NCBI GenBank assembly: GCA_011911785.1
Contig: GCA_011911785.1_4084.1
Origin: a phage
DNA: 64,000 bases
Reading direction: 5' to 3' (one strand)
The notes beneath the pieces are model-generated. The model had not been told where the DNA came from and searched no databases. It saw only the letters and a program-made list of their open reading frames with translations. The translations under genes and the position numbers were made by a program. The number at the start of each line of letters is the position of its first letter. Position 1 is the first letter of the stretch. Positions 16,051 to 64,000 of the stretch are shown in pieces.

Positions 16051-17013
16051 GTGAAGAAACTAGACTTAAACGCAATTTCCGAAGAAGTACTGGATGAATG
16101 TTTTGCGAATGAAGAAGTCAATCCATTGGAAGCAATTGAACCATCAGAAGTTATTGAAGATGATATTCCACATAAAGTTCGTAGTAAAAGTAACATTAGT
16201 CTCAAGCGTCCAGTAGGTGTGACTAATGAATCCATCATCGAAGAGATTCGTGCTGGAATTAATGTAAAAAAGAACACTGACCTATTACTTCGTTATAACT
16301 ATGGTATGATCGTTGATGTTGCTTCAAAGTGTACATGTTATATTCCGTTTGAAGATAAAATTGCATATGGTGTAGAAGGTTTTATGCGAGCACTTAAAAC
16401 CTTTGATCTTAGTAAGAATGTCAAATTCATTACATATGCAACAACGTCCGTTTATATGACTATGTATAATGAAAGTTCAGATGCAAATTACATGGTGTAC
16501 TTACCACGTTATATGAGCGTTCATAACATCCAAGTACGTCGATTTAATGAATCATATCAACGTGAACACGGTAAGCGACCTACACCAGAATTAATCTCTG
16601 AGAGTACTGGTATCGAGCTTCAGCACGTTAAGAACTGTTTGTTATACCAGAATGCATATACGACTCTTGATGCACAACTGGGTTCAGATTCAGACGGAAC
16701 CCTTGGGGATATTCTGAGTTCATCTGCTCGTGATTATAACCTTAATGTTGATAGCATTTGTAATCCATTACGTTATGCAATCACAGAAATCATTGACGAA
16801 TTGAGTACTAAAGAACGAGAAATTATCATGCGTGTTCATGGTCTGGGGGATTACAAAGCAGAAACCCTTCGTGAAATTTCTGATAATGGATATGTTGATG
16901 ATAAAGGAAACATTGTTAAGTCCCGTTCATCTGTGCACCGAAAATATAGTGAAGCTATTCAAAAGCTTAAAAAAATAGTACTTGAAAAAGGGTACGAATA
17001 CGAAGATTTCTAA
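16051..17013 (+). CDS. sigma-70 family RNA polymerase sigma factor-like protein (divergent)
   Basis: GTG start after GGAG; region-2-like ...KFITYATTSVYM... and region-4-like C-terminal segment. Confidence 0.6.
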   Translation: MKKLDLNAISEEVLDECFANEEVNPLEAIEPSEVIEDDIPHKVRSKSNISLKRPVGVTNESIIEEIRAGINVKKNTDLLLRYNYGMIVDVASKCTCYIPFEDKIAYGVEGFMRALKTFDLSKNVKFITYATTSVYMTMYNESSDANYMVYLPRYMSVHNIQVRRFNESYQREHGKRPTPELISESTGIELQHVKNCLLYQNAYTTLDAQLGSDSDGTLGDILSSSARDYNLNVDSICNPLRYAITEIIDELSTKEREIIMRVHGLGDYKAETLREISDNGYVDDKGNIVKSRSSVHRKYSEAIQKLKKIVLEKGYEYEDF

Positions 17014-17020
17014 AGAAAAA

Positions 17021-17048
17021 GGGTTGACTTAGGTCAGCCCTTTTTTTA
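17021..17048 (+). terminator. intrinsic terminator (GGGTTGAC-TTAG-GTCAGCCC plus T7)
   Basis: Hairpin plus T-run directly after sigma-like gene. Confidence 0.7.
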
Positions 17049-17560
17049 TGGGACAAAATGGATGTTCATGATACAATGATATTGTACAATTCTGTTGGCA
17101 TGGATGACATGAACCTGATCCACTCGAAAATGTAGAGGGCAGTTGAGCAGTCCAGCAGTGCGAAGTGCAGAAGAAACCCGTCAGATGTGGGCATATTATG
17201 AACCCCTCACGGCAATGCGGCACTATAAAGAACCACGTTAGGATGGCTGGTGGTTCCTCGATAGACATATAAGGATAACACCTTACGAATTATCTAAGGG
17301 AGAGTTATCAAATTTTGTACAGGAAAGTTGCGTCCAAAATTTGAGTACTCACATTAAGTATTTGATTGCATAGATACTTAATGAAGATACACTATGTTTA
17401 AAAGTGTAGACCGTCATATGAAACTGAAGTAGAGAGAAACAGGATGACCCGCTTTCGTACTCATTAAGAGTAATCTTCAATGCAATAGCTCTGATACCAT
17501 CAGCGTCAAATTCCCCTCCCAGCGGGGGGAAGAAAAATCCCTTCCTCAAATCCCGTCAAT
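17049..17560 (+). ncRNA. candidate structured non-coding region (function unknown)
   Basis: ~500 bp with no plausible ORF, locally higher GC, several G/C-rich inverted repeats. Confidence 0.2.
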
Positions 17561-17571
17561 ATTAAAAGTCC

Positions 17572-17600
17572 TTGACAGTTATTAATCATTCGCGTAGAAT
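17572..17600 (+). promoter_or_regulatory. sigma70-type promoter (TTGACA-17-TAGAAT)
   Basis: Hexamers read directly. Confidence 0.55.
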
Positions 17601-17664
17601 ACGTAGTATTAGAAGCGAACAGACATCTCGAAGAGATGGATGACTAACTATTAAGGAACATTCA

Positions 17665-17874
17665 ATGAATACTACAATCTTTTTAATTGTTGCTCTTTCA
17701 ATGCAATCCGGTGTACAAATTACCCCTATGAATTCATTAAACCAATGTTTTTCTGTACGTGATAGTACATACGAACAAGTAAACAAAAATTCTTGGATGA
17801 CAGTTAGTGAAGAACAAATGTGGTGTTACAAAAGTGATATTAAAGCGAAATTTATTGTAGGACAAACTCAATGA
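17665..17874 (+). CDS. small secreted protein
   Basis: Signal-peptide-like N-terminus. Confidence 0.5.
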   Translation: MNTTIFLIVALSMQSGVQITPMNSLNQCFSVRDSTYEQVNKNSWMTVSEEQMWCYKSDIKAKFIVGQTQ

Positions 17875-18065
17875 TTTATCGAGTGAGGTTTGAAGTTTGT
17901 AAAATTGTTTTCAATAGCAAAGGTGAAGCCTCACTCGATGAAACTCTGCACATATATAATCTCCAATTTAGGGCAAAAACAGAAGCTGATGCATTAGTAA
18001 ACATGTTTAATTTCAACCATAGGTGCGGGTATCATTTAGTAAGAGTTATAGAGGTTAAAAAGTAA
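17871..18065 (+). CDS. hypothetical protein
   Basis: ATGA overlap. Confidence 0.5.
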   Translation: MIYRVRFEVCKIVFNSKGEASLDETLHIYNLQFRAKTEADALVNMFNFNHRCGYHLVRVIEVKK

Positions 18066-18095
18066 TTACCGAATGCAGTGAAGAGGAAATCTAAA

Positions 18096-18890
18096 ATGAG
18101 TACTATCGATGAATTGATTCGACGGAATTCAAAATATTACCAACCATCAGAAATTGTGGATAATATTACTAAATCTGAGTTTGGACCTAATACTCGCAAA
18201 CTCATTCATGTAATGTCTCGTGACGGCTTTAAATGTGATTGTTGTGGTGAATCCAATGTAGTATTCACTTTACATAAGCACAGTACTAAAGAACGTTATA
18301 AATTCAGACCTTATGTACTTAAAGGGAAACGTCTTGTACGCATGACGTTAGACCATAATGTACTGGACTGTCTCCAGGGTGGTAATGATAAAGAAAACAT
18401 GACTGCACTGTGTGAGGATTGTAATGCCTTACGCCAGCATAAGTTCGCAGAGTACAGCGAGTTTAAGTACTGGTATCATAATGCAGACCGTTCAATTGAG
18501 CCTAATGTAAACTACTGCTTCATTGAGTACATCAAGAATGCAAAAGATACATACATTCTTAAATCCATGTCTCCGATTACAGTGTTTCCTGAGAATCTAT
18601 TCAGTACTATGGAGCGTGATTTTAAGCGTGGTATCATCAATGCATTCAAGCACTTAGACAAAGGTATCAAACACTTTGATGTTGAATGTTTAAATTCAGG
18701 TATGAATCGTTTAGTACAAATTTACATGAAATCGTTTATAGGTATTGACAGTGCACGACTACCAGTATATAATTACTTTATTGAAAGCGTAGAAGGTGAA
18801 TCACTTCGTGATTATGGTGAAAGATTTAATAAGAAAGTCTTCACTGCAATAGCAAATGAGATTCATTACTATAAACCATATGTAATTTAA
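18096..18890 (+). CDS. HNH-type endonuclease-like protein (possible homing endonuclease)
   Basis: CDCCG...TLDHN...GGNDKENMTALCEDCN motif arrangement typical of HNH nucleases. Confidence 0.55.
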   Translation: MSTIDELIRRNSKYYQPSEIVDNITKSEFGPNTRKLIHVMSRDGFKCDCCGESNVVFTLHKHSTKERYKFRPYVLKGKRLVRMTLDHNVLDCLQGGNDKENMTALCEDCNALRQHKFAEYSEFKYWYHNADRSIEPNVNYCFIEYIKNAKDTYILKSMSPITVFPENLFSTMERDFKRGIINAFKHLDKGIKHFDVECLNSGMNRLVQIYMKSFIGIDSARLPVYNYFIESVEGESLRDYGERFNKKVFTAIANEIHYYKPYVI

Positions 18891-18904
18891 TTAGAGGAAC
18901 TATC

Positions 18905-19072
18905 ATGCAAATCATTATCTTAATCGTTGGTATCGGTTTGGGCATCTATGGACATTCATGGGTAACTGAGAAGTTTCCTGACACCCGTCCAGATTACTGT
19001 ACAACTAAAACTGAAAGTACTGAAAGTATTGGAACTAAGATCGATAAAGTAATCGAGGTGATTAAACAATGA
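18905..19072 (+). CDS. small membrane peptide (55 aa)
   Basis: ATG after AGAGGAA; not in ORF track (<60 aa). Confidence 0.35.
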   Translation: MQIIILIVGIGLGIYGHSWVTEKFPDTRPDYCTTKTESTESIGTKIDKVIEVIKQ

Positions 19073-19160
19073 TGAAACTTAATATATTTCTGGTTGTATT
19101 CACTGTCGTTGTTATCGGTATTGGTGCACTGGCATATATCCAACCTTAAAGGAAAAATAA

Positions 19161-19361
19161 ATGTTTAAATCGAATACAAATGTTGGTAAGCAGGTTCAAT
19201 TACTTGAAGACGTATCCACTATGAGTGGAACCTTCACTAAAGGTCACATCATGACTATTATTGCCGAAACATCCCGTGGCTGGGACTTGGAAGATGCTGA
19301 TGGTAATCGCATCCTTGAGGCTGGCTTCTATGGTCATCGTGAATATAAAATCATTGATTAA
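19161..19361 (+). CDS. hypothetical protein
   Basis: ATG after AAGGAAAAA. Confidence 0.5.
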   Translation: MFKSNTNVGKQVQLLEDVSTMSGTFTKGHIMTIIAETSRGWDLEDADGNRILEAGFYGHREYKIID

Positions 19362-19459
19362 GGATGCAAACGTGACTTTAGAGATTATCGTTGGTATTGT
19401 TAGTTTTATTCATCTGTGTTGGTTGGTTTGGGTATATGATGATTTTTAGTGATTAACAC

Positions 19460-19487
19460 TTGACAGAAGATATCAGTACTGTATAAT
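19460..19487 (+). promoter_or_regulatory. sigma70-type promoter (TTGACA-16-TATAATgtttatatc)
   Basis: Consensus hexamers with cagtactgTATAAT context. Confidence 0.6.
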
Positions 19488-19532
19488 GTTTATATCAAAC
19501 GAAATCCACTTTAACAAATGATAGGAAATATT

Positions 19533-19811
19533 ATGTCTTTTACCAAAGAAGAACGTGACCTTATTAAAAAAGCAATCTGGTTTTATGCTAATGAAGGGGA
19601 GTGCGATGAAGAAAAAGCACGTGAACTGTGTAATATCCTTGAGCAGAAACAAGAACTGAAAGTGTATCGTATCCGTGTTTTGGATGATGGGGATCGTATT
19701 GTCCTAGCTGAAACAAAAGAAGAAGCAGAACAAATCTTCACTGATAAAAACGAAAATCCACATTGGATGGAAGAAGTCTGTGAAGTAAAAAAAGGTACTT
19801 ATATCGATTGA
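19533..19811 (+). CDS. hypothetical acidic protein
   Basis: Internal ATG with AGGAAA upstream. Confidence 0.5.
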   Translation: MSFTKEERDLIKKAIWFYANEGECDEEKARELCNILEQKQELKVYRIRVLDDGDRIVLAETKEEAEQIFTDKNENPHWMEEVCEVKKGTYID

Positions 19812-19836
19812 CTGTACTGAATAATAGCAGTATAAT
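19808..19836 (+). promoter_or_regulatory. sigma70-type promoter (TTGACT-17-TATAAT)
   Basis: Hexamers; followed by a long imperfect hairpin in the leader. Confidence 0.55.
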
Positions 19837-19929
19837 GTTTATATCAAAGGGAATGCAGTGAAAGGAAAGACAGCATAATCGTACTCGTCACTGCGTTCCC
19901 GCCCTTTTAAATTAAATGAGGAATTAACT

Positions 19930-20238
19930 ATGTTTCAAACTAACACTCAAGGTTTTGTAATCATCGATTTGAATCAAAACAGCGGTTATTGGATGAAACC
20001 TACTGACGCATGTATGCAGTTTGATTTTTTAGGTTACAGGATTAGTGTAAGTACTGGTGCTTCTGTACTGCGTGGTGGTTGTATCGTTGAACATCTGGTA
20101 ACTGATCCAGAAGGTCGTGAGTATGAAATCGCAGGTTCAGTACAAGATGCCATTATGTTTGTATGTCAGCGTGAAATGAATGGTTCGAATTCAAATGCAC
20201 TGACTCATGCTCTTTCTCAAGAAGTGGAGGTTCGTTAA
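19930..20238 (+). CDS. hypothetical protein
   Basis: ATG after GAGGAA. Confidence 0.55.
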   Translation: MFQTNTQGFVIIDLNQNSGYWMKPTDACMQFDFLGYRISVSTGASVLRGGCIVEHLVTDPEGREYEIAGSVQDAIMFVCQREMNGSNSNALTHALSQEVEVR

Positions 20239-22693: not shown

Positions 22694-23359
22694 ATGCTCG
22701 CCAATTTAAGTTACATTATTAGTGATGATATGGTACAAAGTCGTGGTATGTATCTTGAGAAAGTTCCATACGATAGCGATGGTATCAAAGGAACTTTATA
22801 CGAAAGTCGTTTTGACAGAAAGCATCCATTCTGGGAAAAGGCTAATCTAACGGAAGAAGATAGTAATCGTTTATTTTGTGCTGTGCAGACGCCTACACCT
22901 GGTATATTAGCGGGTTATGGTATAGATAAAGTCATTAACTTTATGACAGACTATGAAGTTATTAAAAGTCTGCAATATATTAATACGAACAATGGTGAGT
23001 TCTATAATTCTGATGATTTTCTTGCTATGTGTAGTGCTTCATATGAGAGTGAATTATTGCCAAGTGGTAGACCATTCCCATTGTCAACACATTGTAATTC
23101 CCCTTACGGTGTAGCTGACAACTTACAGCAGATCCTTAAGAAACATAAGAATGTTCTTACATCTGAAATGGAAGTTGTTATTGGATTTCATCCAGTGTAC
23201 AAGGAAGATCAACCTGAACATGGTGGGTGGCGTTGGCATAAGCACGGCACATACATTGGTACTCATAAGAAAAAGCATGAGTACTTGTATGATGAAGAAG
23301 GTATTGATGTTGTTTATTGTTACGAACTAATCCCAGTAAAGAAAAAGGAAACACTATAA
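22694..23359 (+). CDS. hypothetical protein
   Basis: ATG after GAGGAA. Confidence 0.55.
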   Translation: MLANLSYIISDDMVQSRGMYLEKVPYDSDGIKGTLYESRFDRKHPFWEKANLTEEDSNRLFCAVQTPTPGILAGYGIDKVINFMTDYEVIKSLQYINTNNGEFYNSDDFLAMCSASYESELLPSGRPFPLSTHCNSPYGVADNLQQILKKHKNVLTSEMEVVIGFHPVYKEDQPEHGGWRWHKHGTYIGTHKKKHEYLYDEEGIDVVYCYELIPVKKKETL

Positions 23360-29735: not shown

Positions 29736-29768
29736 AGGTTGACTTCGGTCAGCCTTTTTTGCTATAAT
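29736..29768 (+). terminator. terminator hairpin (UUCG loop) fused to extended -10 promoter (TGcTATAAT)
   Basis: AGGTTGACTTCGGTCAGCCT, T6, TGCTATAAT. Confidence 0.7.
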
Positions 29769-32175: not shown

Positions 32176-32202
32176 TATGTACGCATTGTATAATAAAGAA
32201 AA

Positions 32203-32235
32203 GGGTTGACTTCAGTCAGCCCTTTTTGCTATAAT
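32203..32235 (+). terminator. terminator hairpin fused to extended -10 promoter (TGcTATAAT)
   Basis: GGGTTGACTTCAGTCAGCCC, T5, TGCTATAAT. Confidence 0.7.
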
Positions 32236-32925: not shown

Positions 32926-32931
32926 TATAAG

Positions 32932-32964
32932 GGGTTGACTTCGGTCAGCCCTTTTTGCTATAAT
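32932..32964 (+). terminator. terminator hairpin (UUCG loop) fused to extended -10 promoter
   Basis: GGGTTGACTTCGGTCAGCCC, T5, TGCTATAAT. Confidence 0.7.
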
Positions 32965-34355: not shown

Positions 34356-34387
34356 GGTTGACTTCGGTCAGCCCTTTTTGCTATAAT
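34356..34387 (+). terminator. terminator hairpin (UUCG loop) fused to extended -10 promoter
   Basis: GGTTGACTTCGGTCAGCC, T5, TGCTATAAT. Confidence 0.7.
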
Positions 34388-57408: not shown

Positions 57409-57573
57409 AATCAAAATTTTTATTTTGTTTTTTCCAATAGTTCCCCTACCGCGTGGGGATGGTTTCCCCGCAGTATCTGGAGTTAGATTTTTCTGAATCT
57501 GGAATCATTATCTAATAAACTGGGGGCAATGTCAACCGCCTGGATGAATATTTTTAAAAATAATCTAGTACTG

Positions 57574-57650
57574 AATTTTGGGCGTAACTATGCACCCGGT
57601 GGGCTAGAGTCTTTCTCGACTTGATGAAATAATTATAGCAGTACTGAATG
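57574..57650 (+). repeat. repeat element B copy (ttttgggcgta...gcacccggtgggctagag...taattata)
   Basis: Shares ~50-bp core with copies at 57786, 59660, 61176. Confidence 0.5.
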
Positions 57651-57785
57651 ATAAAAGCAATAGCCTAAGTGTAAAAAGTTTTAATTAATTTGCTTGCCAT
57701 CCTGGGGCGTACTATGGTACTATGATTCAGTACTGAGAAAGTGCTTTTACCTGCTAGGGTGCGGGAGTGTATCCTTTTTAAATTT

Positions 57786-57860
57786 ACTGAATTTTGGGCG
57801 TAGTTCCGCACCCCCTGGGGTATCCGCTTTCTCGCGTCTATGTAGTAATTATACGCTTTT
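57786..57860 (+). repeat. repeat element B copy
   Basis: ttttgggcgtagttccgcaccccctggggtatccgctttctcgcgtctatgtagtaattatac. Confidence 0.5.
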
Positions 57861-58078: not shown

Positions 58079-58106
58079 TTGCAAAGTATTGGGAAAGGTG
58101 TAGAAT
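58079..58106 (+). promoter_or_regulatory. early-type promoter (aaaagtacTTGCAA-16-TAGAAT-gttttacatc)
   Basis: First of >=12 near-identical promoter units in block C. Confidence 0.6.
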
Positions 58107-58120
58107 GTTTTACATCGAGA

Positions 58121-58137
58121 GCGGGAACACTTCCCGC
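58121..58137 (+). promoter_or_regulatory. 5' leader hairpin (GCGGGAA-CAC-TTCCCGC)
   Basis: Inverted repeat between -10 and SD. Confidence 0.55.
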
Positions 58138-58161
58138 TACACTTTAAGAGAGATTAAAACG

Positions 58162-58524
58162 ATGGCTACTCAAATCAATAAAATTATTGCTAACCTGGTT
58201 AACTTCCGCGAAGAGATGAAAGGTCTTCCGGCTGAAACTGTAAAGATTCACATTTCAGCTTATCGGGAATTGATTGCGATGTTACCGCTTAAGCGTGAAC
58301 AATACGCCGCTACCGTGATGCTTGATGCGATGATCCACAAGATGATTGCCAGTGATTTAACGATGGCTTATCAGTACATGGGCGAAATGTTTGCGGTGTA
58401 TAGTAAACCAGTACCAGGGATGGAAAGTACCGAAGTATTGCACGGTTTAAACTTAAAACAAGATGCATGGGATAATATGCCTCGTTTCCTGGTATGGGCT
58501 GACAGTGGCAAGATTTACGAATAA
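58162..58524 (+). CDS. hypothetical protein
   Basis: ATG downstream of leader hairpin; track start 58105 lies in the -10. Confidence 0.6.
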   Translation: MATQINKIIANLVNFREEMKGLPAETVKIHISAYRELIAMLPLKREQYAATVMLDAMIHKMIASDLTMAYQYMGEMFAVYSKPVPGMESTEVLHGLNLKQDAWDNMPRFLVWADSGKIYE

Positions 58525-58538
58525 GTTTTAAAAAGTAC

Positions 58539-58566
58539 TTGCAAACTAAGTTTAAAAGCGTATAAT
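58539..58566 (+). promoter_or_regulatory. early-type promoter (TTGCAA-16-TATAAT)
   Basis: Repeated promoter unit. Confidence 0.6.
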
Positions 58567-58578
58567 ACTTTCTATCAG

Positions 58579-58597
58579 GTGGGGAATAGTTCCCCAC
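58579..58597 (+). promoter_or_regulatory. 5' leader hairpin (GTGGGGAA-TAG-TTCCCCAC)
   Basis: Perfect 8-bp inverted repeat. Confidence 0.6.
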
Positions 58598-58618
58598 TAC
58601 AAATAAGAGAATTTAAAA

Positions 58619-58858
58619 ATGGCTACTACTAAAACTTTCAACGGTCACAAAAACAAAACTCAATGGAATGTAAGCCTTTGGATTAATAACGATGAGTCAT
58701 TGTATCGTCTGGCGAAAGAATTTATCGACGCTAATACTAATCGTAATGATGCGGCCCGTCATATGATGCTATTTTTAGAACAAATTGGACAAGATAAAAC
58801 ACCGGACGGATTCAAGTATAGCACTACTGCGATCCGTGCTGCAATGGTTGGCATGTAA
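58619..58858 (+). CDS. hypothetical protein
   Basis: ATG after AAGAGAATTTAAAA. Confidence 0.6.
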   Translation: MATTKTFNGHKNKTQWNVSLWINNDESLYRLAKEFIDANTNRNDAARHMMLFLEQIGQDKTPDGFKYSTTAIRAAMVGM

Positions 58859-58939
58859 GAGAATAGATTAAAAGTACTATTGCACGGTGATAGTACTTTA
58901 TAATAGATTTCTTTTATACATCAACGATGGGGTAACAGC

Positions 58940-59206
58940 ATGAATATTATATACTTTGCAACGCGTGAACTAGCTCGGATTGCAGCACGCCAGGACGGGG
59001 CGACGTTTAAAGATATGGGTGTACAATCGGAACGTGGTAAACGTTGGGCCGTAGTAAAGCAAAGTACAGCCCGATCAATTCAGTACTGGTTAGCGGCGTT
59101 AAAAAGTCCTGATAGTGTATCGCGTCGAGTAGTAGAAATAAAGCACGACCGCAAGGGCAACCGTGTTACTGTGTACAGTACTAAAAAGATTGCAGTACTT
59201 GAATAA
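58940..59206 (+). CDS. hypothetical basic protein
   Basis: ATG after GGGGTAACAGC. Confidence 0.55.
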   Translation: MNIIYFATRELARIAARQDGATFKDMGVQSERGKRWAVVKQSTARSIQYWLAALKSPDSVSRRVVEIKHDRKGNRVTVYSTKKIAVLE

Positions 59207-59212
59207 AAGTAC

Positions 59213-59240
59213 TTGCATACTAAGTTTAAAAGCGTATAAT
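59213..59240 (+). promoter_or_regulatory. early-type promoter (TTGCAT-16-TATAAT)
   Basis: Repeated promoter unit. Confidence 0.6.
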
Positions 59241-59252
59241 ACTTTATATCAG

Positions 59253-59271
59253 GTGGGGAATACTTCCCCAC
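59253..59271 (+). promoter_or_regulatory. 5' leader hairpin (GTGGGGAA-TAC-TTCCCCAC)
   Basis: Inverted repeat; loop differs from the 58579 copy. Confidence 0.6.
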
Positions 59272-59292
59272 TACAATGAAGAGGATTTTAAA

Positions 59293-59523
59293 ATGGCTAT
59301 CATGTATATGACCGAAGTTAAAACCGTAAAAGATACTACCACTAATAAAACTACTTACTTACAGCGGGTATGCGGTGTATGGCAACGTATTAGTAAAGCA
59401 AAGTACTTTAAATTAACATCATATGCTAATCGTTCGGATTCATTCAGTACTGAAATAAAAGGTAATAAATTACACCAATACGGCACTTATTATTATTATA
59501 GCCTGGACGCGATTGCAGTCTAA
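59293..59523 (+). CDS. hypothetical protein
   Basis: ATG after AAGAGGATTTTAAA. Confidence 0.6.
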   Translation: MAIMYMTEVKTVKDTTTNKTTYLQRVCGVWQRISKAKYFKLTSYANRSDSFSTEIKGNKLHQYGTYYYYSLDAIAV

Positions 59524-59659
59524 GCAGTTTACAAATCTTTACAATTGCCGGTATTGACTTATTTTGTCAGTACTGGCATAATGTATCTATTGAAACGAAC
59601 AATTTGGCCCACGGGGTGCGGGAGTGTATCTATAGAAAAAGTAGTTTAGTACAGTTACA

Positions 59660-59710
59660 ATTGTGCACCCGGTGGGTTAGCTGTTGTCATGGGGTATATT
59701 ATACCAGTAC
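59660..59710 (+). repeat. repeat element B copy (partial)
   Basis: gtgcacccggtgggttagctgttgtcatggggtatattatac. Confidence 0.4.
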
Positions 59711-59772
59711 TTGATAATGCTGTCAATACTTTTTTTTACTATTCAGTACTGAAAACTATTTTTAAAAAGTAC

Positions 59773-59800
59773 TTGCAAACTATGTTTAAAGGCGTATAAT
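59773..59800 (+). promoter_or_regulatory. early-type promoter with leader hairpin but no ORF (degenerate duplicate of the next unit)
   Basis: TTGCAA-16-TATAAT, hairpin 59814-59841, then ccaggagtaaggcatacg where the next unit has ccaggagtaagcatcATG. Confidence 0.5.
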
Positions 59801-59890
59801 GTTTTACATCAGGACGGGGAACGAAATAAGTAACTCCCCGTTAAGTAGCCCAGGAGTAAGGCATACGAAAAACTCCCCTGATAAAATAGT

Positions 59891-59918
59891 TTGACAATTG
59901 TTTTTAAAAGCGTATAAT
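59891..59918 (+). promoter_or_regulatory. early-type promoter (TTGACA-16-TATAAT)
   Basis: Repeated unit; leader hairpin 59931-59953. Confidence 0.6.
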
Positions 59919-59973
59919 ACTTTACATCGAGGCGGGGGAATGATTCTCCCGCCTATAACCAGGAGTAAGCATC

Positions 59974-60207
59974 ATGATCGAACAAATCAAAACTACTACA
60001 AGCCGGACTGGAACGAAAGTACATTGCATCGCTGATAACGAAAAAGGCGTACCCTATTGTGCTGTACACGTAAACACAGATGGCGACTATTGGTTAACTG
60101 TATATGGGAGTTATTCGTTTGCTCGACCTGCTCATAGTAAGATCCTGGACGTAGTGAAGCCTACCGGAAAGGATATCACGGTAGAAAAATATTTTACTAA
60201 GCACTAA
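59974..60207 (+). CDS. hypothetical protein
   Basis: ATG after CCAGGAGTAAGCATC. Confidence 0.6.
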   Translation: MIEQIKTTTSRTGTKVHCIADNEKGVPYCAVHVNTDGDYWLTVYGSYSFARPAHSKILDVVKPTGKDITVEKYFTKH

Positions 60208-60214
60208 AAAGTAC

Positions 60215-60242
60215 TTGCATACTAAGTTTAAACGAGTATAAT
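60215..60242 (+). promoter_or_regulatory. early-type promoter (TTGCAT-16-TATAAT)
   Basis: Repeated unit; leader hairpin ~60256-60276. Confidence 0.6.
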
Positions 60243-60295
60243 ACTTTATATCGAGGCGGGGGAATGGTTCCCCTGCATTTACAGAGGATTATCTA

Positions 60296-60583
60296 ATGAG
60301 CAAAGTAATTGACTATAAAGTGTTAACCAAATCATTTTCTATCAGCCAGTGCACCGATGGTTATTGGCTTTATGATGAAACACGCGGCATGAATTTAGCT
60401 ATGCGGGAGAAAACTGCTGAGGCGGCGTATGTGCAAGCCCTGGAATACTACCAGAAACGTTTAAAGGAAGTAGAAGAGGATTATAAAAGCCTCAAAGAGA
60501 AAGTAGATAATTTCGTCGGTCAATTCGTTGACGATGACGAGGAAGACGGGTACTACTGCAACCGCTGCGGATCTTACAATTAA
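60296..60583 (+). CDS. hypothetical protein with C-terminal CNRCG motif
   Basis: ATG after AGAGGATTATCTA. Confidence 0.6.
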   Translation: MSKVIDYKVLTKSFSISQCTDGYWLYDETRGMNLAMREKTAEAAYVQALEYYQKRLKEVEEDYKSLKEKVDNFVGQFVDDDEEDGYYCNRCGSYN

Positions 60584-60600
60584 GTACTGAGGATTATCTA

Positions 60601-60804
60601 ATGAGTGATTTAATCGACCGTATCAAAGAGCTTGAAGAAAAAGAATTGCAGTTAATCGGCTTACAAAATAAAATCTTTCATGATTTGGGGAGTTTTATCA
60701 ATGCCTGGGATAGTGGCGATCCTGCTGCGTTACCTGCTAACCGCGAGGCGATGATCAATGATGTGCGTGGTGTCTTTGAGTATGTTTTAAAGCAATTAAA
60801 TTAA
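60601..60804 (+). CDS. hypothetical protein
   Basis: ATG after GAGGATTATCTA (duplicate of upstream RBS); co-transcribed. Confidence 0.6.
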   Translation: MSDLIDRIKELEEKELQLIGLQNKIFHDLGSFINAWDSGDPAALPANREAMINDVRGVFEYVLKQLN

Positions 60805-60812
60805 AAAAGTAC

Positions 60813-60840
60813 TTGCAATTAGTTTTCAGTACTGTATAAT
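60813..60840 (+). promoter_or_regulatory. early-type promoter (TTGCAA-16-TATAAT)
   Basis: Repeated unit; leader hairpin 60853-60871 (GGGGAGA/TCTCCC). Confidence 0.6.
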
Positions 60841-60890
60841 AGTTTACATCAAGGGGAGAAATGGTTCTCCCTGGTAATGAGGAAAATAAA

Positions 60891-61112
60891 ATGGCTAATA
60901 TCACTACTCTTTCCCAACTTGAAGCACTGGTTAAATCTATGCGGGAACATGCCGACAATATCGGCGTAAAAGATCCAGCCGTTTGCTTCTGCGACGAATT
61001 GAATGATGATACATTGGTAATAGCAGAAGTCCAGGACGTTTCTAACTATTCATCGCGTTACACTGGCGGCGTAGCAAATAAAGGTGACTTCTGTTTATAC
61101 CTTACAAAATAA
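60891..61112 (+). CDS. hypothetical protein
   Basis: Internal ATG after GAGGAAAATAAA; track start is inside the leader hairpin. Confidence 0.6.
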   Translation: MANITTLSQLEALVKSMREHADNIGVKDPAVCFCDELNDDTLVIAEVQDVSNYSSRYTGGVANKGDFCLYLTK

Positions 61113-61117
61113 CAACG

Positions 61118-61147
61118 AGGGGATCAATTGATCCCCTTTCTTTTTTC
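61118..61147 (+). terminator. intrinsic terminator (GGGGATCAATTGATCCCC plus T-run)
   Basis: Perfect palindromic stem followed by T-run. Confidence 0.75.
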
Positions 61148-61175
61148 AGTACTGAATCATTTAATAGACGGATCT

Positions 61176-61235
61176 ATGCACCCGGTGGGTTAGAGACTGT
61201 TTCGTCTTTATGTAGTAATTATACAGTACTGGATG
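61176..61235 (+). repeat. repeat element B copy
   Basis: tatgcacccggtgggttagagactgtttcgtctttatgtagtaattatac. Confidence 0.5.
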
Positions 61236-61357
61236 CAGTTGTCAAGAACTATTTTTCAAATACTTTTATATTAATGTACTATACAATAGTTTTTAAACGC
61301 GTATAATGTTTTACATCTAGTCGGGAATACTCCCTAGTACTAACAAAGGATATACAA

Positions 61358-61657
61358 ATGAAAACTGCAATCATCGCCCTGGCTTTATCTGTTTCCTCTT
61401 TCGCTGTTAATGCGTCGTTAGATGTACCTGGTGATAAATTCATTCAGTGCACCGTAGCAATGACCGATGAAAGTACTGGCGAGATTGTTTTAAAGGATCT
61501 GGAATTACAGCCAGAAGCATTTAAAAACGGGCCGTTCCATGAAGAAGACGAAAACGGTAGCACAACAATTTATTATGATGCAAAGAAAAAACGCGGTTCG
61601 GTCACTGTTATGGATACTGAGAAAGTAACGCATACAGGCGTTATTAACTGCCTATAA
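61358..61657 (+). CDS. secreted small protein (signal peptide)
   Basis: MKTAIIALALSVSSFAVNA signal peptide; ATG after AAAGGATATACAA. Confidence 0.6.
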   Translation: MKTAIIALALSVSSFAVNASLDVPGDKFIQCTVAMTDESTGEIVLKDLELQPEAFKNGPFHEEDENGSTTIYYDAKKKRGSVTVMDTEKVTHTGVINCL

Positions 61658-61677
61658 TACATCAGTACTGAATCACT

Positions 61678-61705
61678 AGCCCACTATAAGCAGTGGGCTT
61701 TTTTG
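61678..61705 (+). terminator. intrinsic terminator (AGCCCACT...AGTGGGCT plus T-run)
   Basis: Hairpin plus T6; near-duplicate of terminator at 62408. Confidence 0.7.
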
Positions 61706-61752
61706 TAGTATCGTAGTACTGGAATACTTTGAAAATAGTTTTAAAAAAGTAG

Positions 61753-61780
61753 TTGACATTACCGCAAAAAGGCGTAGAAT
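61753..61780 (+). promoter_or_regulatory. early-type promoter (TTGACA-16-TAGAAT) with ~120-nt leader
   Basis: Hexamers; leader shares motifs with the orphan unit at 59773. Confidence 0.55.
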
Positions 61781-61903
61781 GTATTACATCAAGACGGGGA
61801 ACACTAAGTAGACCGCCAGTAAGTCGAACGAAAAACTGGACACGTCGAGAAAACTTTGATACACTAACTAACGTAAACTAAACTTTAATTGAGGAATTAC
61901 ATA

Positions 61904-62386
61904 ATGGCTAACGTAAAATCATTCATCAAAGCACTGGTAGCAAATGAAACTAACGTAGCGGCAGAGATCCTGGCCGAACTGGATAGCGATACCATGAAAG
62001 CAGTACGCAACAATTTTAACATTGCGTACAGCGAAGCGAAAGAACTGCAAGCTAATAAAGCGGCAGCACTTGAAGCTGAGAAGGCAGCACGCGAAGCTGA
62101 ATTGCAGAAAACGATTGAAGATATTAACGCCGCCGTCGCTGGGCTTGATCTGGAAGTAGTTACCGAAATGGCACGTAAAGCCCTGGCAGCGAAATACGGG
62201 GAAGACAAGCCAGAAGTAAAAGCTAAAAAATGGATTCAGGAACGCGTGACGGTAGTACTGGATAACGGCGAGGAATACACTGTACCAGTACGCGGTAACT
62301 GCATTGCGGTAGTACTGGATGCTATCAAAGAAAGCGGATTGACTCGCGAGGAATGGATCGAAGCTCATCGCAAAGTTGAAGCATAA
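61904..62386 (+). CDS. hypothetical Ala/Glu/Lys-rich protein
   Basis: ATG after GAGGAATTACATA; antisense track ORFs are low-complexity artefacts. Confidence 0.65.
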   Translation: MANVKSFIKALVANETNVAAEILAELDSDTMKAVRNNFNIAYSEAKELQANKAAALEAEKAAREAELQKTIEDINAAVAGLDLEVVTEMARKALAAKYGEDKPEVKAKKWIQERVTVVLDNGEEYTVPVRGNCIAVVLDAIKESGLTREEWIEAHRKVEA

Positions 62387-62407
62387 CAATTAAAGTACTG
62401 AATCACT

Positions 62408-62435
62408 AGCCCACCTTAAACAGTGGGCTTTTTTG
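62408..62435 (+). terminator. intrinsic terminator (AGCCCACC...CAGTGGGCT plus T-run)
   Basis: Hairpin plus T6. Confidence 0.7.
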
Positions 62436-62588
62436 TGTCTATCGTTTACCAGGCCAGCAGCACCGCCTAGAATCGATTCTAACGCATTAAACTGATTATC
62501 TGATGCATCGCCCTAGCTGGTGGCGTTAAGGTCGTTAGAATGCGATTGAGGACGTTTAAAGTATTTTGCAAAAAGTAATAAAAAGTAC

Positions 62589-62616
62589 TTGCACGATTAA
62601 GAGATTAGCGTATAAT
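62589..62616 (+). promoter_or_regulatory. early-type promoter (TTGCAC-16-TATAAT)
   Basis: Repeated unit. Confidence 0.55.
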
Positions 62617-62661
62617 TAATTTCATCAAGGCGAGACACCTTAACTAACTGAGGATATAAAG

Positions 62662-62814
62662 ATGAATACTTATGAACTGGATTGTTTCACTTTACAAGTA
62701 ATGTCAGTATGCAGCAAGAAAGATTGGTCATCAAAGGAATTTAAAGCAGTTATCGCGTGTGCAAAACACGGCAAGACTATCAATGAAACGGCATCAATCA
62801 TTGATAAACTTTAA
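62662..62814 (+). CDS. small protein (50 aa)
   Basis: ATG after GAGGATATAAAG; below ORF-track cutoff. Confidence 0.4.
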   Translation: MNTYELDCFTLQVMSVCSKKDWSSKEFKAVIACAKHGKTINETASIIDKL

Positions 62815-62822
62815 AAAATAGT

Positions 62823-62851
62823 TTGACAATAGTTTTAAGTACTGACATAAT
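62823..62851 (+). promoter_or_regulatory. early-type promoter (TTGACA-17-CATAAT)
   Basis: Repeated unit. Confidence 0.55.
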
Positions 62852-62885
62852 ACATACATCAACTACTGAATAGGAATTAAAAAAA

Positions 62886-63113
62886 ATGGCTATCGTAATC
62901 ACTCGCGTAACTGGTACTACTGGCAATTCTTCTACTGTTGCTGTAATTACTAACAAGAAAGGTGCGGAACTACATTTTGCAATGTATAACTGGTCAGTTG
63001 ATGAGTTTGGTCAGTACGCTAGTGTAGAATACATTGAAACCTATCAAGTGCCGTCGATTAGTTTAACTGATTTGGGCGTTGAGCGTATCCTTTGCCTGGA
63101 TGAATTAAATTAA
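62886..63113 (+). CDS. hypothetical protein
   Basis: ATG after AGGAATTAAAAAAA. Confidence 0.6.
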   Translation: MAIVITRVTGTTGNSSTVAVITNKKGAELHFAMYNWSVDEFGQYASVEYIETYQVPSISLTDLGVERILCLDELN

Positions 63114-63121
63114 AAAAGTAC

Positions 63122-63149
63122 TTGCAAAGTAAAACGAATAAAGTATAAT
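63122..63149 (+). promoter_or_regulatory. early-type promoter (TTGCAA-16-TATAAT) with leader hairpin 63162-63181
   Basis: Repeated unit; GGGGAGAAATGGTTCTCCCC hairpin. Confidence 0.6.
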
Positions 63150-63198
63150 ACATTACATCAAGGGGAGAAATGGTTCTCCCCACTAAGAGGAAACGAAA

Positions 63199-63342
63199 AT
63201 GAAAACTTGTCAATGTGGTAAAAAATCTATTACTGGTTTAAAGCGGGGCGTTGCTCTTTGTCAGTATCACTATAATGCTCAAGTATGGGGTAAAGAGTGG
63301 GCCGACCAGGTTGAAGCAGTAAAGAAAGCAAAAAGTAAGTAA
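63199..63342 (+). CDS. small Cys-containing protein (47 aa, CQCG...CQYH)
   Basis: ATG after AGAGGAAACGAAA; below ORF-track cutoff. Confidence 0.4.
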   Translation: MKTCQCGKKSITGLKRGVALCQYHYNAQVWGKEWADQVEAVKKAKSK

Positions 63343-63361
63343 AATTATTATCACAGTACTA

Positions 63362-63390
63362 TTGACATAGATTGATAGTACTGGCATAAT
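63362..63390 (+). promoter_or_regulatory. early-type promoter (TTGACA-17-CATAAT), copy 1 of duplicated promoter-leader
   Basis: Unit at ~63343-63433 repeated almost exactly at ~63647-63737. Confidence 0.6.
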
Positions 63391-63433
63391 AGATTTTATC
63401 AAGACAACACATATTAATTTAAGGAATACTAAA

Positions 63434-63646
63434 ATGGCTATCATTATTAAAAACAAAGTTAACAAGACTATCGTTAAACTGGCAGAAGTGAAAGAAGGTT
63501 ATAAAGTATCTTGGGAGGGTTTTTATAGGATGTTCACAGATATAGACGATGCAATCAAGTACTACACTGATACGGTTGCTGACTTTGTTCGTTCTGATGT
63601 AGTAATGGCAGTTGCACAACATAAAGCATCGAAAGAAAGTAAGTAA
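63434..63646 (+). CDS. hypothetical protein
   Basis: ATG after AAGGAATACTAAA. Confidence 0.6.
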   Translation: MAIIIKNKVNKTIVKLAEVKEGYKVSWEGFYRMFTDIDDAIKYYTDTVADFVRSDVVMAVAQHKASKESK

Positions 63647-63665
63647 AAATATTATCACAGTACTA

Positions 63666-63694
63666 TTGACATAGTTTGATAGTACTGGCATAAT
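63666..63694 (+). promoter_or_regulatory. early-type promoter, copy 2 of duplicated promoter-leader
   Basis: Near-identical to 63362..63390 unit. Confidence 0.6.
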
Positions 63695-63737
63695 AGATTT
63701 TATCAAGACAACACATATTAATTTAAGGAATACTAAA

Positions 63738-64000
63738 ATGGCTAAAACTATCATTAACACCGTATCCCTGGCTGCAATCCGTGCAATCAATGTTGACGGT
63801 AAACGTTGGACTGATTCATATGGCAATACTTATCATTCTTGTCATGTAAGCGTTGAACTGGATAACGGTGTGAATGATCTGGCGGTTGAATCATTTACTT
63901 ATGGCTATGAAGATGCATATCAACAAACGGCGTTATCTCTCTTAAAGGAATCAGTAGATGGGCTTGATACTGTTGAAACCTCCCTTAATCGTTTGTGCAA
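63738..64000 (+). CDS. hypothetical protein (3' end outside window)
   Basis: ATG after AAGGAATACTAAA; open to window end. Confidence 0.55.
   Translation, partial: MAKTIINTVSLAAIRAINVDGKRWTDSYGNTYHSCHVSVELDNGVNDLAVESFTYGYEDAYQQTALSLLKESVDGLDTVETSLNRLC

What the first reader, a model, noticed from the sequence alone, without database searches (positions are those of the whole stretch)
58079..63740. Repeated early promoter unit with a 5' leader hairpin showing compensatory base changes
At least 12 genes in block C are each preceded by aaaaagtacTTGCAa/TTGACA, a 16-17 bp spacer, TATAAT, then (a/g)(c/t)tttacATCaagg and, in at least eight units, a G-rich/C-rich hairpin before the SD. Stems differ between copies yet stay complementary (GTGGGGAA/TTCCCCAC, GCGGGAA/TTCCCGC, GGCGGGGGA/TCTCCCGCC, GGGGAGA/TCTCCCC, ACGGGGA/TCCCCGT), which argues for selection on RNA or DNA structure. 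The promoter layout resembles what I recall of T4-type early promoters. The hairpin could stabilise the transcript 5' end or be a protein recognition element.
Basis: partly seen in the sequence, partly recalled or inferred. Interest (0 to 1): 0.7.

Follow-up and report, generated by a model that had tools for sequence, protein, structure and literature searches.

The report
Shuffling early promoter cassettes with leader hairpin
The first 6 kb of a jumbo coliphage's terminal-repeat early region is an array of portable promoter, leader-hairpin and ribosome-site cassettes in front of tiny genes of unknown function; it is the jumbo-phage counterpart of the "PeSL" cassettes known from T4-like phages, and here the hairpin is conserved as RNA and does not look like a terminator.

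Summary
Window 58079-63740 holds 14 sigma-70-type promoters on the + strand, plus two degenerate or ORF-less ones. Eight are followed, 4-6 nt after the predicted start, by a G-rich/C-rich hairpin (-10.7 to -18.3 kcal/mol). Strong promoters (11 vs 1.6 in shuffles) and GC hairpins (9 vs 0.2) far exceed chance.

The window comes from an Asteriusvirus (121Q/G17/fEgEco12 group). The array is the start of the ~21-kb direct terminal repeat, and the same unit recurs dozens of times per genome.

Across 46 distinct copies, 5 of 9 stem pairs show compensatory changes. Non-Watson-Crick pairs are G·U 17 times and A·C once, so selection acts on the sense-strand RNA. None of 55 hairpins has a U-tail.

Indel and replacement breakpoints between related phages fall inside the units. 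A Vequintavirinae phage carries five of the cassette genes in another order.

The closest known kind is PeSL (promoter-early stem-loop) cassettes of T4-like phages. This is a new variant: another phage group, and the stem-loop always lies in the transcribed leader.

The hairpin's function is inferred, not shown. I favour mRNA protection or insulation. Attenuation, a protein-recognised tag and a purely DNA-level role are rivals.

The parts
58079..58164 (+). Class I cassette 1: -35 TTGCAA 58079, -10 TAGAAT 58101, predicted start 58114, hairpin 58120-58138 (AGCGGGAA/UUCCCGCU), ATG 58162. This is the first gene of the terminal repeat (= fEgEco12 g01).
58539..58621 (+). Class I cassette 2: -35 58539, -10 58561, start 58574, hairpin 58578-58598 (GGUGGGGAA/UUCCCCACU), ATG 58619
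58870..58942 (+). Decayed unit (TTGCAC, only a 13-nt spacer, TATAAT; no hairpin) before gene 58940
59213..59295 (+). Class I cassette 3: -35 59213, -10 59235, start 59248, hairpin 59252-59272, ATG 59293. It is a 93% copy of cassette 2 over 95 nt.
   Evidence: (family D3)
59773..59890 (+). ORF-less class I unit: promoter, long-loop hairpin 59813-59842, then a decayed RBS/start (CCAGGAGTAAGGCATACG) copied from gene 59974. It is a recombination remnant fused to the next unit.
   Evidence: (D12)
59891..59976 (+). Class I cassette: -35 TTGACA 59891, -10 59913, start 59926, hairpin 59930-59954 (11 bp, one G·U), ATG 59974. A homology breakpoint against 121Q lies at 59928/59935, between start and hairpin.
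60215..60298 (+). Class I cassette: -35 60215, -10 60237, start 60250, hairpin 60256-60276 (one G·U), ATG 60296. A breakpoint against G17 lies at 60205, where the unit begins.
60813..60893 (+). Class I cassette: -35 60813, -10 60835, start 60848, hairpin 60853-60872 (one G·U), ATG 60891. A breakpoint against fEgEco12 lies at 60806.
61280..61360 (+). Class I unit with a decayed -35 (TATACA) and a weak hairpin (GGGA/UCCC, -5.3 kcal/mol), ATG 61358 (signal-peptide protein, annotated 'spackle' in fEgEco12). Positions 61272-61316 are duplicated around an extra gene in G17.
61753..61906 (+). Class I unit with only the 5' arm (ACGGGGAAC) left and a 116-nt leader containing the 59842-type remnant; ATG 61904
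   Evidence: (D12)
62589..62664 (+). Class I unit with a hairpin remnant (AAGGCGAGACACCUU); ATG 62662
62823..62888 (+). Class II unit (TTGACA, 17 nt, TG-CATAAT), 27-nt unstructured leader, ATG 62886
63122..63201 (+). Class I cassette: -35 63122, -10 63144, start 63157, hairpin 63162-63181 (GGGGAGAA/UUCUCCCC), ATG 63199. It is 94-96% identical over 90 nt in some Vequintavirinae phages.
63320..63440 (+). Class II unit (-35 63362, -10 63385, ATG 63434). It is the left copy of a 120-bp direct repeat flanking gene 63434-63646, which G17 lacks.
63625..63745 (+). Class II unit (-35 63666, -10 63689, ATG 63738); the right copy of the 120-bp repeat
61117..61146 (+). Canonical intrinsic terminator (hairpin plus U-run). 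Two more lie at 61678-61707 and 62408-62437. They contrast with the leader hairpins, which have no U-run.

Best explanation
Block C is the start of the ~21-kb direct terminal repeat of an Asteriusvirus jumbo phage. This is the early region that host sigma-70 RNA polymerase reads first. It is built from portable expression cassettes. Each has an A-rich UP-like stretch, a -35 box, a 16-nt spacer, a -10 box, a T-rich discriminator, a start at the A of 'ATC', a G-arm/C-arm hairpin at about +5 to +25, a Shine-Dalgarno site about 6-9 nt later, and the ATG of a small gene of unknown function.

The roughly 95-nt units are similar enough to recombine with one another. Genes are therefore inserted, deleted, replaced and reordered at unit boundaries, including transfer into another phage subfamily. 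In kind this is the PeSL system of T4-like phages.

The hairpin is maintained by selection on the sense-strand RNA. It is not a canonical terminator.

Inferred, not shown: the hairpin serves the mRNA. It may shield or insulate the short leader and ribosome site against ribonucleases, at the 5' end of primary transcripts and between cistrons in read-through transcripts. That would boost the burst of early expression.
For: Identity and location. The window is 86-92% identical to Asteriusvirus genomes, but as a mosaic of pieces. Gene 58162 equals g01 of fEgEco12, whose termini and 20,993-bp repeat were confirmed experimentally. Covariance-model hits lie only inside the repeat: fEgEco12 1700-20144, none at 21-30 kb; in the window only 58116-63185.

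Promoters. Strong promoters and GC hairpins are far above chance.

Hairpin as sense-strand RNA. All 55 strict hairpins start 10-14 nt after the -10 box and have the G-rich arm first. Five of 9 pairs change on both sides. The covariation score is 0.375, against 0.152 in shuffles (0 of 500 reach it) and at most 0.12 when the partners are slid. A gapless loop-anchored alignment and RNAalifold give the same picture. Non-Watson-Crick pairs are G·U 17, A·C 1.

Orthologues. Thirty of 35 orthologous gene groups keep a hairpin in every genome, and in 19 of them the sequence differs.

Not a terminator. None of 55 hairpins has a T-tail. The tool's terminator scan picks only three other + strand sites.

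Shuffling. Breakpoints fall at 59928/59935, 60205, 60806, 61272-61316 (unit duplicated around an extra gene) and 63320-63440 = 63625-63745. Vequintavirinae phage W70 has five cassette genes in another order.

Genes. All ten tested proteins have no known function.

Published comparison. PeSL features are taken from PMC2839356 and PMC4122927.
Against: There are no transcription-start, half-life or reporter data for any of these phages. The start site is predicted from promoter geometry only.

With that start, 3-7 nucleotides (mode 5) stay unpaired at the 5' end. That is more than the classic 5'-terminal stabilisers tolerate (recalled from Emory et al. 1992, not checked here). Simple stem-loops barely impede RNase E scanning (PMC11194081).

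Class II early promoters in the same array do well without any hairpin. A few hairpins occur without a promoter (121Q L001 21389, W70 L003 5171).

The sequences in the covariation alignments were chosen because they form hairpins, and they are paralogues. The shuffle controls therefore overstate significance.

The invariant GAA...UUC apex (46 of 46 distinct copies) is not explained by structure alone.
Confidence: 0.55

Rival explanations
1. Attenuator or terminator, which is the PeSL authors' reading. The hairpin damps transcription arriving from upstream promoters (or pauses polymerase), so that nested read-through does not over-express downstream genes.
For: One RB49 PeSL stem-loop reduced lacZ expression as much as rrnB T1 (PMC2839356). 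The G17 GenBank record labels at least one leader hairpin as an ARNOLD terminator: L002 22968-22987, on the covariance-model hit at 22965-22990. In raw counts, hairpins are rarer after a canonical terminator (48% vs 82%, p = 3e-4).
Against: None of 55 hairpins has a U-rich tail. The phage uses canonical hairpin-plus-U-run terminators where it terminates. It also has a separate composite terminator-in-promoter unit (window 29763, 32230, 32959, 34382). The hairpin lies downstream of its own start, so it would attenuate its own transcript equally. The terminator association vanishes once orthologues are collapsed (64% vs 80%, p = 0.29).
Confidence: 0.15
2. Class tag. The hairpin marks terminal-repeat early mRNAs for a phage or host RNA-binding protein or endoribonuclease, for example for timed shut-off or protection. 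That would be analogous in logic to T4 RegB acting on early mRNAs.
For: The apical GAA...UUC and the central G-C pair are invariant in 46 distinct copies, while the lower pairs covary. The G-arm is always 5'. The element is restricted to one promoter class: all 82 hairpin units have the 16-nt spacer. It is also restricted to the terminal repeat.
Against: Loop sequence and size vary freely: 3-6 nt, at least 15 variants. The conservation can come from common descent and gene conversion between cassettes. No candidate protein was identified.
Confidence: 0.15
3. DNA-level element only. The inverted repeat serves recombination (a cruciform or crossover hot spot, or a site-specific recombinase target), and the RNA hairpin is a by-product.
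For: Breakpoints fall in or next to units. PeSL crossovers were mapped in the loop or beside the stem (PMC2839356).
Against: The strand asymmetry (G·T 17 vs A·C 1) is not expected for double-stranded DNA. Most mapped junctions lie at the UP/-35 edge or between start and hairpin, not in the stem. Class II units, which have no hairpin, also flank indels (63320-63440 / 63625-63745).
Confidence: 0.08
4. No function. The hairpin is a passenger in a recently amplified promoter repeat.
For: The units are clearly paralogous (families D1-D3). Some copies have decayed (61302, 61775, 62611).
Against: Compensatory and G·U-only changes are seen. The hairpin is kept across genus-level distance: Munch and fENko-Kae01 have about 29% ANI to fEgEco12 (PMC13070987), yet retain hairpins with other sequences. 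It is also kept in 30 of 35 orthologous groups.
Confidence: 0.04

Closest known systems
PeSL (promoter-early stem-loop) cassettes of T4-like phages RB49/phi1, T4/PST and KVP40/nt-1 (Arbiol et al. 2010, PMC2839356; Comeau et al. 2014, PMC4122927)
   Same: Both have an AT-rich upstream stretch, a near-consensus sigma-70 promoter, a G-run-loop-C-run stem-loop with G·T pairs, then SD and ATG. Both sit in front of small genes of unknown function in a hyperplastic early region. Both are many per genome, with indels and replacements between close relatives at the units, and with degraded 'half' units.
   Different: The host group is a Rak2-like jumbo phage (Asteriusvirus), not a T4-like phage, and blastn found no match in T4-like phages. 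Here the stem-loop always lies in the transcribed leader (+5 to +25). In RB49/phi1 it is mostly between or over the -35 and -10 boxes. It has no U-tail, and its covariation and G·U bias point to an RNA role rather than termination. Mini-circles were not tested. The classic PeSL geometry (a terminator holding the -35 box) does exist elsewhere in this window.
5'-terminal stem-loop mRNA stabilisers of E. coli (ompA and papA leaders; Emory, Bouvet and Belasco 1992, cited in PMC3997798)
   Same: A simple hairpin near the 5' end of an mRNA, upstream of the ribosome site, in which pairing matters and sequence largely does not.
   Different: Those act only when at or next to the very 5' end (recalled, not checked here). 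Here 3-7 unpaired nucleotides are predicted. No stability data exist. The apex sequence is invariant.
T4 early promoters (UP/-35/TGn/-10; Hinton 2010, PMC2988021)
   Same: Very strong host-polymerase promoters with UP-like A-tracts that drive immediate early genes.
   Different: The -35 box is TTGCAA/TTGACA rather than T4's TTTACW. Class I has a 16-nt spacer and no TGn. T4 early promoters are not described as carrying a leader hairpin.
Terminal-repeat early regions of large phages: the PA5oct 39-kb repeat is highly transcribed early (PMC7318152); CBB has RpoD-like promoters with UP elements before short ORFs (PMC5259590); T5 has pre-early genes in its terminal repeat (own knowledge)
   Same: A long direct terminal repeat packed with small early genes under sigma-70-like promoters.
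   Different: None of those descriptions mentions a conserved leader hairpin or cassette shuffling.
Promoter-proximal RNA hairpins that modify polymerase (lambda nut boxB, HK022 put; own knowledge)
   Same: RNA stem-loops encoded just downstream of early phage promoters.
   Different: Those occur once or twice per genome and have a conserved loop (boxB) or a two-stem architecture (put). Here there are dozens of copies and the loops vary freely.

Membership tests
PeSL (promoter-early stem-loop cassette) | [quoted passage not shown] | tested here: met
   aaaaagtac / ttaaaaaag precedes every class I -35 box
PeSL (promoter-early stem-loop cassette) | Strong sigma-70-like -35 and -10 boxes | tested here: met
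   TTGCAA/TTGACA, 16 nt, TATAAT. There are 11 sites with at least 10 of 12 matches, against 1.55 in shuffles. Activity itself was not tested.
PeSL (promoter-early stem-loop cassette) | Stable stem-loop, typically a G-run, a loop, then a C-run, with G·T pairs | tested here: met
   Eight in the window, at -10.7 to -18.3 kcal/mol. All 55 hairpins across relatives have the G-arm first, and 20 of the 55 contain G·U pairs.
PeSL (promoter-early stem-loop cassette) | Stem-loop within or next to the promoter (five subclasses; most often between or over the -35 and -10 boxes, and described as lying before the transcription start) | tested here: inconclusive
   Here it always lies 10-14 nt after the -10 box, that is, after the predicted start. 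This is nearest to the rare 'downstream of -10' subclass, but transcribed. The classic geometry occurs elsewhere in the window (29763, 32230, 32959, 34382).
PeSL (promoter-early stem-loop cassette) | SD and start codon of a small ORFan at the 3' end, located in a hyperplastic region | tested here: met
   The hairpin ends 16-23 nt before the ATG. Ten of ten proteins have no known function. The region is a mosaic between relatives.
PeSL (promoter-early stem-loop cassette) | Indels, replacements and shuffling between close relatives occur at the units | tested here: met
   Breakpoints at 59928/59935, 60205, 60806, 61272-61316 and 63320-63440 / 63625-63745. Cassettes are reordered in W70.
PeSL (promoter-early stem-loop cassette) | The stem-loop acts as a transcription terminator or attenuator | tested here: inconclusive
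   Function is not testable here. By sequence proxy it is not met: 0 of 55 have a U-tail.
PeSL (promoter-early stem-loop cassette) | Excision of cassette mini-circles during infection | not testable with these tools
   Needs inverse PCR on infected cells.
5'-terminal stem-loop mRNA stabiliser (ompA type) | Hairpin at or within very few nucleotides of the 5' terminus | tested here: inconclusive
   Three to seven unpaired nucleotides are predicted (mode 5) from a start inferred by geometry only.
5'-terminal stem-loop mRNA stabiliser (ompA type) | Pairing matters, sequence does not | tested here: inconclusive
   The lower five pairs covary, but the apical GAA/UUC is invariant.
5'-terminal stem-loop mRNA stabiliser (ompA type) | Prolongs mRNA half-life | not testable with these tools
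   Needs decay measurements.
Intrinsic (Rho-independent) terminator | GC-rich hairpin immediately followed by a U-run | tested here: not met
   The hairpin is present, but 0 of 55 have at least 5 T in the next 8 nt. The tool's scan does not list them.
T4-type early promoter | UP + -35 (TTTACW) + TGn + -10, with a 17-nt spacing | tested here: not met
   The UP-like stretch and the -10 box are present. The -35 box is TTGCAA/TTGACA, the spacer is 16 nt, and class I has no TGn. Class II has TGn and 17 nt.

The most novel reading that the evidence does not exclude
The leader hairpin is not just a passive stability element. It is a class-specific RNA tag on terminal-repeat early transcripts, with an invariant GAA...UUC apex on a covarying stem, that a phage-encoded or host factor reads to protect or to switch off the whole early class at once. 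The promoter-tag-RBS module is also a portable vehicle that moves ORFans between unrelated phage families (Asteriusvirus and Vequintavirinae).
Probability: 0.15. Interest if true: 0.7.

Novelty: new variant of a known kind. Interest (0 to 1): 0.45.

Why it matters
It extends the PeSL idea from T4-like phages to Rak2-like jumbo phages and to exchange between phage families. The idea is that conserved regulatory cassettes both express and shuffle accessory genes. It would help explain why the ~21-kb terminal repeats of these 350-kb genomes are so mosaic.

It also questions the standard reading of the stem-loop as a terminator. Here the evidence points to a transcribed RNA element under selection for pairing.

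In practice, the cassettes give a compact natural set of strong E. coli promoter/leader/RBS modules. They also give a rule for annotating early transcription units in jumbo phages, where some of these hairpins are now labelled as terminators. The two promoter classes, with and without the hairpin, provide a ready-made natural experiment.

Tried and rejected
1. MAFFT alignments of whole units or of loop-centred segments with mixed loop sizes (A1, A2) put the arms out of register. I replaced them with a gapless triloop set (A3) and a covariance-model alignment (A5).

2. Rfam has no family for the hairpin or the neighbouring non-coding elements, at gathering or relaxed thresholds.

3. An exact-pattern scan of IMG/VR for promoter plus GGGGAGAA hairpin found only the 121Q genome itself. 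The element looks confined to this phage group, plus the islands in Vequintavirinae.

4. I asked whether hairpins are lost when a canonical terminator lies upstream. Raw counts were significant. After collapsing orthologues the effect was not significant (p = 0.29), so I do not use it as evidence.

5. I considered the hairpin as a roadblock to RNase E scanning. Published data say orthogonal stem-loops have a negligible effect, so I dropped it as support.

6. The CMSTMSU locus (L007, an UNVERIFIED record with fragmentary gene calls) was excluded from all counts.

7. Pfam and PHROGs gave no function for ten cassette proteins. The only hits were DUF7249, a weak DUF1033 and unknown-function PHROGs.

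8. Literature searches found no description of promoters or leader hairpins in Asteriusvirus.

9. I did not fetch RB49/phi1 to compare actual PeSL sequences. The only test was blastn with one unit, which found no T4-like phage.

Full report
WHAT THE WINDOW IS

Window 58000-63800 matches Escherichia jumbo myophages of the 121Q/PBECO4/G17 group (genus Asteriusvirus). Identity is 86-92%, but coverage is only 50-80% and split into many pieces, so the region is mosaic.

The first gene of the block (ATG 58162) is g01 of phage fEgEco12. [quoted passage not shown] The blast offset places genome position 1 at about window 56487. Block C is therefore the first 6 kb of the terminal repeat.

In the related phage PA5oct, the terminal repeat is highly transcribed early (PMC7318152). 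In Klebsiella phage fENko-Kae01, the homologous region is annotated as the terminal repeat.

THE OBSERVATION

Reading the sequence and scanning for promoters shows two kinds of unit on the + strand.
- Class I has an A-rich stretch ending in AGTAC, then TTGCAA/T/C or TTGACA, a 16-nt spacer, TATAAT/TAGAAT, a T-rich 7-nt discriminator and 'ATC'. There are eleven. One has a decayed -35 box.
- Class II has TTGACA, a 17-nt spacer with TG, then CATAAT. There are three, plus one at 59554 that drives no ORF.

Eight class I units carry a clear hairpin that begins 4-6 nt after the predicted start. Energies are -10.7 to -18.3 kcal/mol, and z is -1.7 to -3.7 for the first 45 nt. Three class I units have weak or broken hairpins (61302, 61775, 62611).

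Against 200 dinucleotide shuffles, strong + strand promoters number 11 vs 1.55 +/- 1.24, and GC-rich hairpins 9 vs 0.21 +/- 0.47.

THE UNIT IN RELATIVES

The same promoter-plus-hairpin unit occurs dozens of times in several phages:
- 121Q (L001), G17 (L002), fEgEco12 (L008) and EJP2 (L005);
- the more distant Salmonella phage Munch (L004) and Klebsiella phage fENko-Kae01 (L006);
- a small island in the Vequintavirinae phage W70 (L003).

A blastn search with one 90-nt unit finds 58 records, with up to 30 places per record. All are Escherichia, Salmonella or Klebsiella phages, and none is T4-like.

A covariance model of the hairpin finds 62 hits at E below 0.001, all on the + strand. In fEgEco12 the hits (E up to 1) lie at 1700-20144, inside the repeat, with none at 21-30 kb. 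In the window they lie at 58116-63185 only.

All 82 hairpin-bearing units have the 16-nt spacer. I then defined units by promoter, UP-like stretch and a following ORF:
- 109 of 145 sixteen-spacer units have the hairpin, against 6 of 66 seventeen-spacer units;
- leaders are 45 nt (median) with the hairpin and 29 nt without;
- the hairpin starts 3-7 nt (mode 5) from the predicted start and ends 16-23 nt (mode 19) before the ATG.

IS THE PAIRING SELECTED, AND AT WHAT LEVEL?

On a gapless loop-anchored alignment of 33 distinct triloop copies, the inner seven pairs are paired in every sequence and five pairs show changes on both sides. The covariation score is 0.313, against 0.140 in shuffles (0 of 500 reach it) and 0.06-0.10 for slid partners. 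RNAalifold predicts the same 8-bp stem on its own.

On the model-based alignment of 46 distinct copies, the score is 0.375, against 0.152 in shuffles and at most 0.12 for slid partners.

A caveat applies. The copies were picked because they fold, and they are paralogues, so the shuffle control is generous.

A less circular test uses genes. Among 35 groups of orthologous downstream genes with a hairpin in at least one genome, 30 have one in every genome, and in 19 of those the hairpin sequence differs. One example is a matched loss of one G and one U from opposite arms, between window 59930 and 121Q 21389.

A mismatch-tolerant search over 60 leader hairpins found non-Watson-Crick positions of G·T 17, A·C 1, A·A 1 and G·A 1. 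Among unique sequences the G·T to A·C count is 13 to 1. By my own calculation the two-sided binomial p is about 0.002.

G·U is tolerated only in the sense-strand RNA. That argues against a double-stranded DNA palindrome or operator.

IS IT A TERMINATOR?

None of the 55 strict leader hairpins is followed by at least 5 T in the next 8 nt. The tool's terminator scan of 56-64 kb lists none of them. It does find canonical + strand terminators at 61117, 61678 and 62408.

Elsewhere the window has a different composite unit in which a true terminator hairpin contains the -35 box and its T-run forms the spacer (29763, 32230, 32959, 34382).

Some public annotations label some of these leader hairpins as terminators, for example G17 L002 22968-22987.

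CASSETTE SHUFFLING

Homology breakpoints against 121Q, G17 and fEgEco12 fall in or at the edge of units:
- 59928/59935, between start and hairpin. 121Q has an extra 612-bp gene there and keeps the hairpin without a promoter.
- 60205 and 60806, at the first A of the UP-like stretch.
- 61272-61316, a promoter segment present on both sides of an extra gene in G17.
- 63320-63440 = 63625-63745, a 120-bp unit repeated on both sides of gene 63434-63646, which G17 lacks.

The ORF-less unit at 59773 is a remnant. Its 'CCAGGAGTAAGGCATACG' is the decayed ribosome site and start of gene 59974. The same remnant sits in the long leader of unit 61753.

W70, from a different subfamily, carries homologues of window genes 62886, 63199, 63434, 58619 and 60296 side by side in another order, at 76-87% identity.

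All ten cassette proteins tested lack a known function.

COMPARISON WITH WHAT IS KNOWN

These features match the published definition of PeSLs in T4-like phages. A PeSL has an AT-rich stretch, a sigma-70-like promoter, a G-run-loop-C-run stem-loop with G·T pairs, then SD and ATG of an ORFan. PeSLs are clustered in hyperplastic regions and sit at indel junctions (PMC2839356, PMC4122927).

The differences are:
- the phage group is different;
- the stem-loop always lies in the transcribed leader, whereas in RB49/phi1 it is mostly between or over the boxes;
- there is no U-tail;
- the evidence here points to RNA-level selection.

T4's consensus differs in -35 sequence and spacing and has TGn.

I found no paper describing these units in Asteriusvirus. 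The CBB paper reports RpoD-like promoters with UP elements in a similar early region but no hairpin.

MECHANISM

Shown:
- a repeated promoter-like unit;
- a hairpin conserved by compensatory and G·U-type changes on the sense strand;
- no terminator tail;
- unit-associated rearrangements;
- location in the terminal repeat.

Inferred: host sigma-70 polymerase starts at the A of 'ATC', the hairpin forms in the leader, and it benefits the mRNA.

I favour a role in protecting or insulating the short leader and ribosome site. It would act at the 5' end of primary transcripts and between cistrons in read-through transcripts. This is not secure, for three reasons:
- three to seven unpaired 5' nucleotides are predicted;
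- simple stem-loops are poor obstacles to RNase E scanning (PMC11194081);
- class II units manage without a hairpin.

Attenuation or pausing, a protein-recognised class tag (the GAA...UUC apex is invariant) and a purely DNA-level role remain open. A raw association between upstream terminators and loss of the hairpin disappeared after collapsing orthologues.

VERDICT

The element is a new variant of a known kind (PeSL-like cassettes). Interest is moderate. It extends cassette-mediated shuffling to jumbo phages and across phage families, and it gives sequence evidence that the stem-loop is an RNA element rather than a terminator.

Noticed in passing
whole window (1-64000): The palindrome AGTACT (often CAGTACTG) occurs 229 times, 10.5 times the mononucleotide expectation of 21.8. 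It is spread through coding and non-coding DNA and is densest in the last 12 kb. It overlaps the -35 box 13 times (AGTAC-TTGCAA) and abuts the -10 box 14 times. Such over-representation of a palindromic hexamer is unusual and unexplained.
   Followed up: partly
window 29739-29768, 32198-32235, 32929-32964, 34358-34387 (also a hairpin at 17014-17047); L001 30418, 33716, 35640: Composite terminator-in-promoter units of the form AAAGGGTTGACTtcgGTCAGCCCTTTTTGC-TATAAT. The terminator stem contains the -35 box and its T-run forms the spacer. This is the classic PeSL geometry, distinct from the leader-hairpin units.
   Followed up: partly
window 57569-57637, 57785-57853, 59590-59700, 61155-61223: A repeated non-coding element of about 70-100 nt (core GCACCCGGTGGG) lies between convergent strong promoters. 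The minus-strand promoters are at 57875, 59726 and 61245; a plus-strand one is at 59554. Folds are stable (z = -3.1 and -5.1) and there is no Rfam match. These may be small RNAs or transcription insulators near the genome end.
   Followed up: partly
window about 56487: The left physical end of the genome (fEgEco12 position 1) maps here. The window therefore runs across the junction between the right unique end and the terminal repeat. Positions 56.5-58.0 kb are gene-poor and rich in repeats and promoters.
   Followed up: partly
L003 3555-5900 (Escherichia phage W70, Vequintavirinae); also A7_1, A5-4, A73, LTH01, UPEC06: An island of Asteriusvirus-type cassettes sits in rV5-like phages of about 140 kb. 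It includes a unit 94-96% identical to window 63112-63201. Five cassette genes appear in a different order, which implies exchange between phage families.
   Followed up: partly
window 60280-60313 and 60585-60618: Gene 60601 has no promoter. Its ribosome site and first codons (TACTGAGGATTATCTAATGAG) are an 82% copy of those of gene 60296.
   Followed up: no
window 58162, 58619, 59293, 60891, 61904, 62886, 63434, 63738: Eight of the cassette genes begin with ATGGCTA (Met-Ala), so unit conservation runs into the first codons.
   Followed up: no
alignments A3 and A5 (hairpin apex): The two loop-closing A-U pairs (GAA...UUC) and the central G-C pair never vary in 46 distinct copies, while loop sequence and the lower stem vary. 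The apex on the non-template strand often reads AANNNT (for example AATAGT), which is weakly -10-like. This is unexplained.
   Followed up: no
window 61358-61657: A 99-aa protein with an N-terminal signal-like sequence. Its fEgEco12 homologue is annotated 'protein spackle', which in T4 is a superinfection-exclusion lysozyme inhibitor. Pfam gave no hit.
   Followed up: no
one search hit list: The 5.8-kb query also gave megablast hits in records named Campylobacter (7), Acinetobacter (1), Phapecoctavirus and Justusliebigvirus phages. I did not check which segment matched.
   Followed up: no
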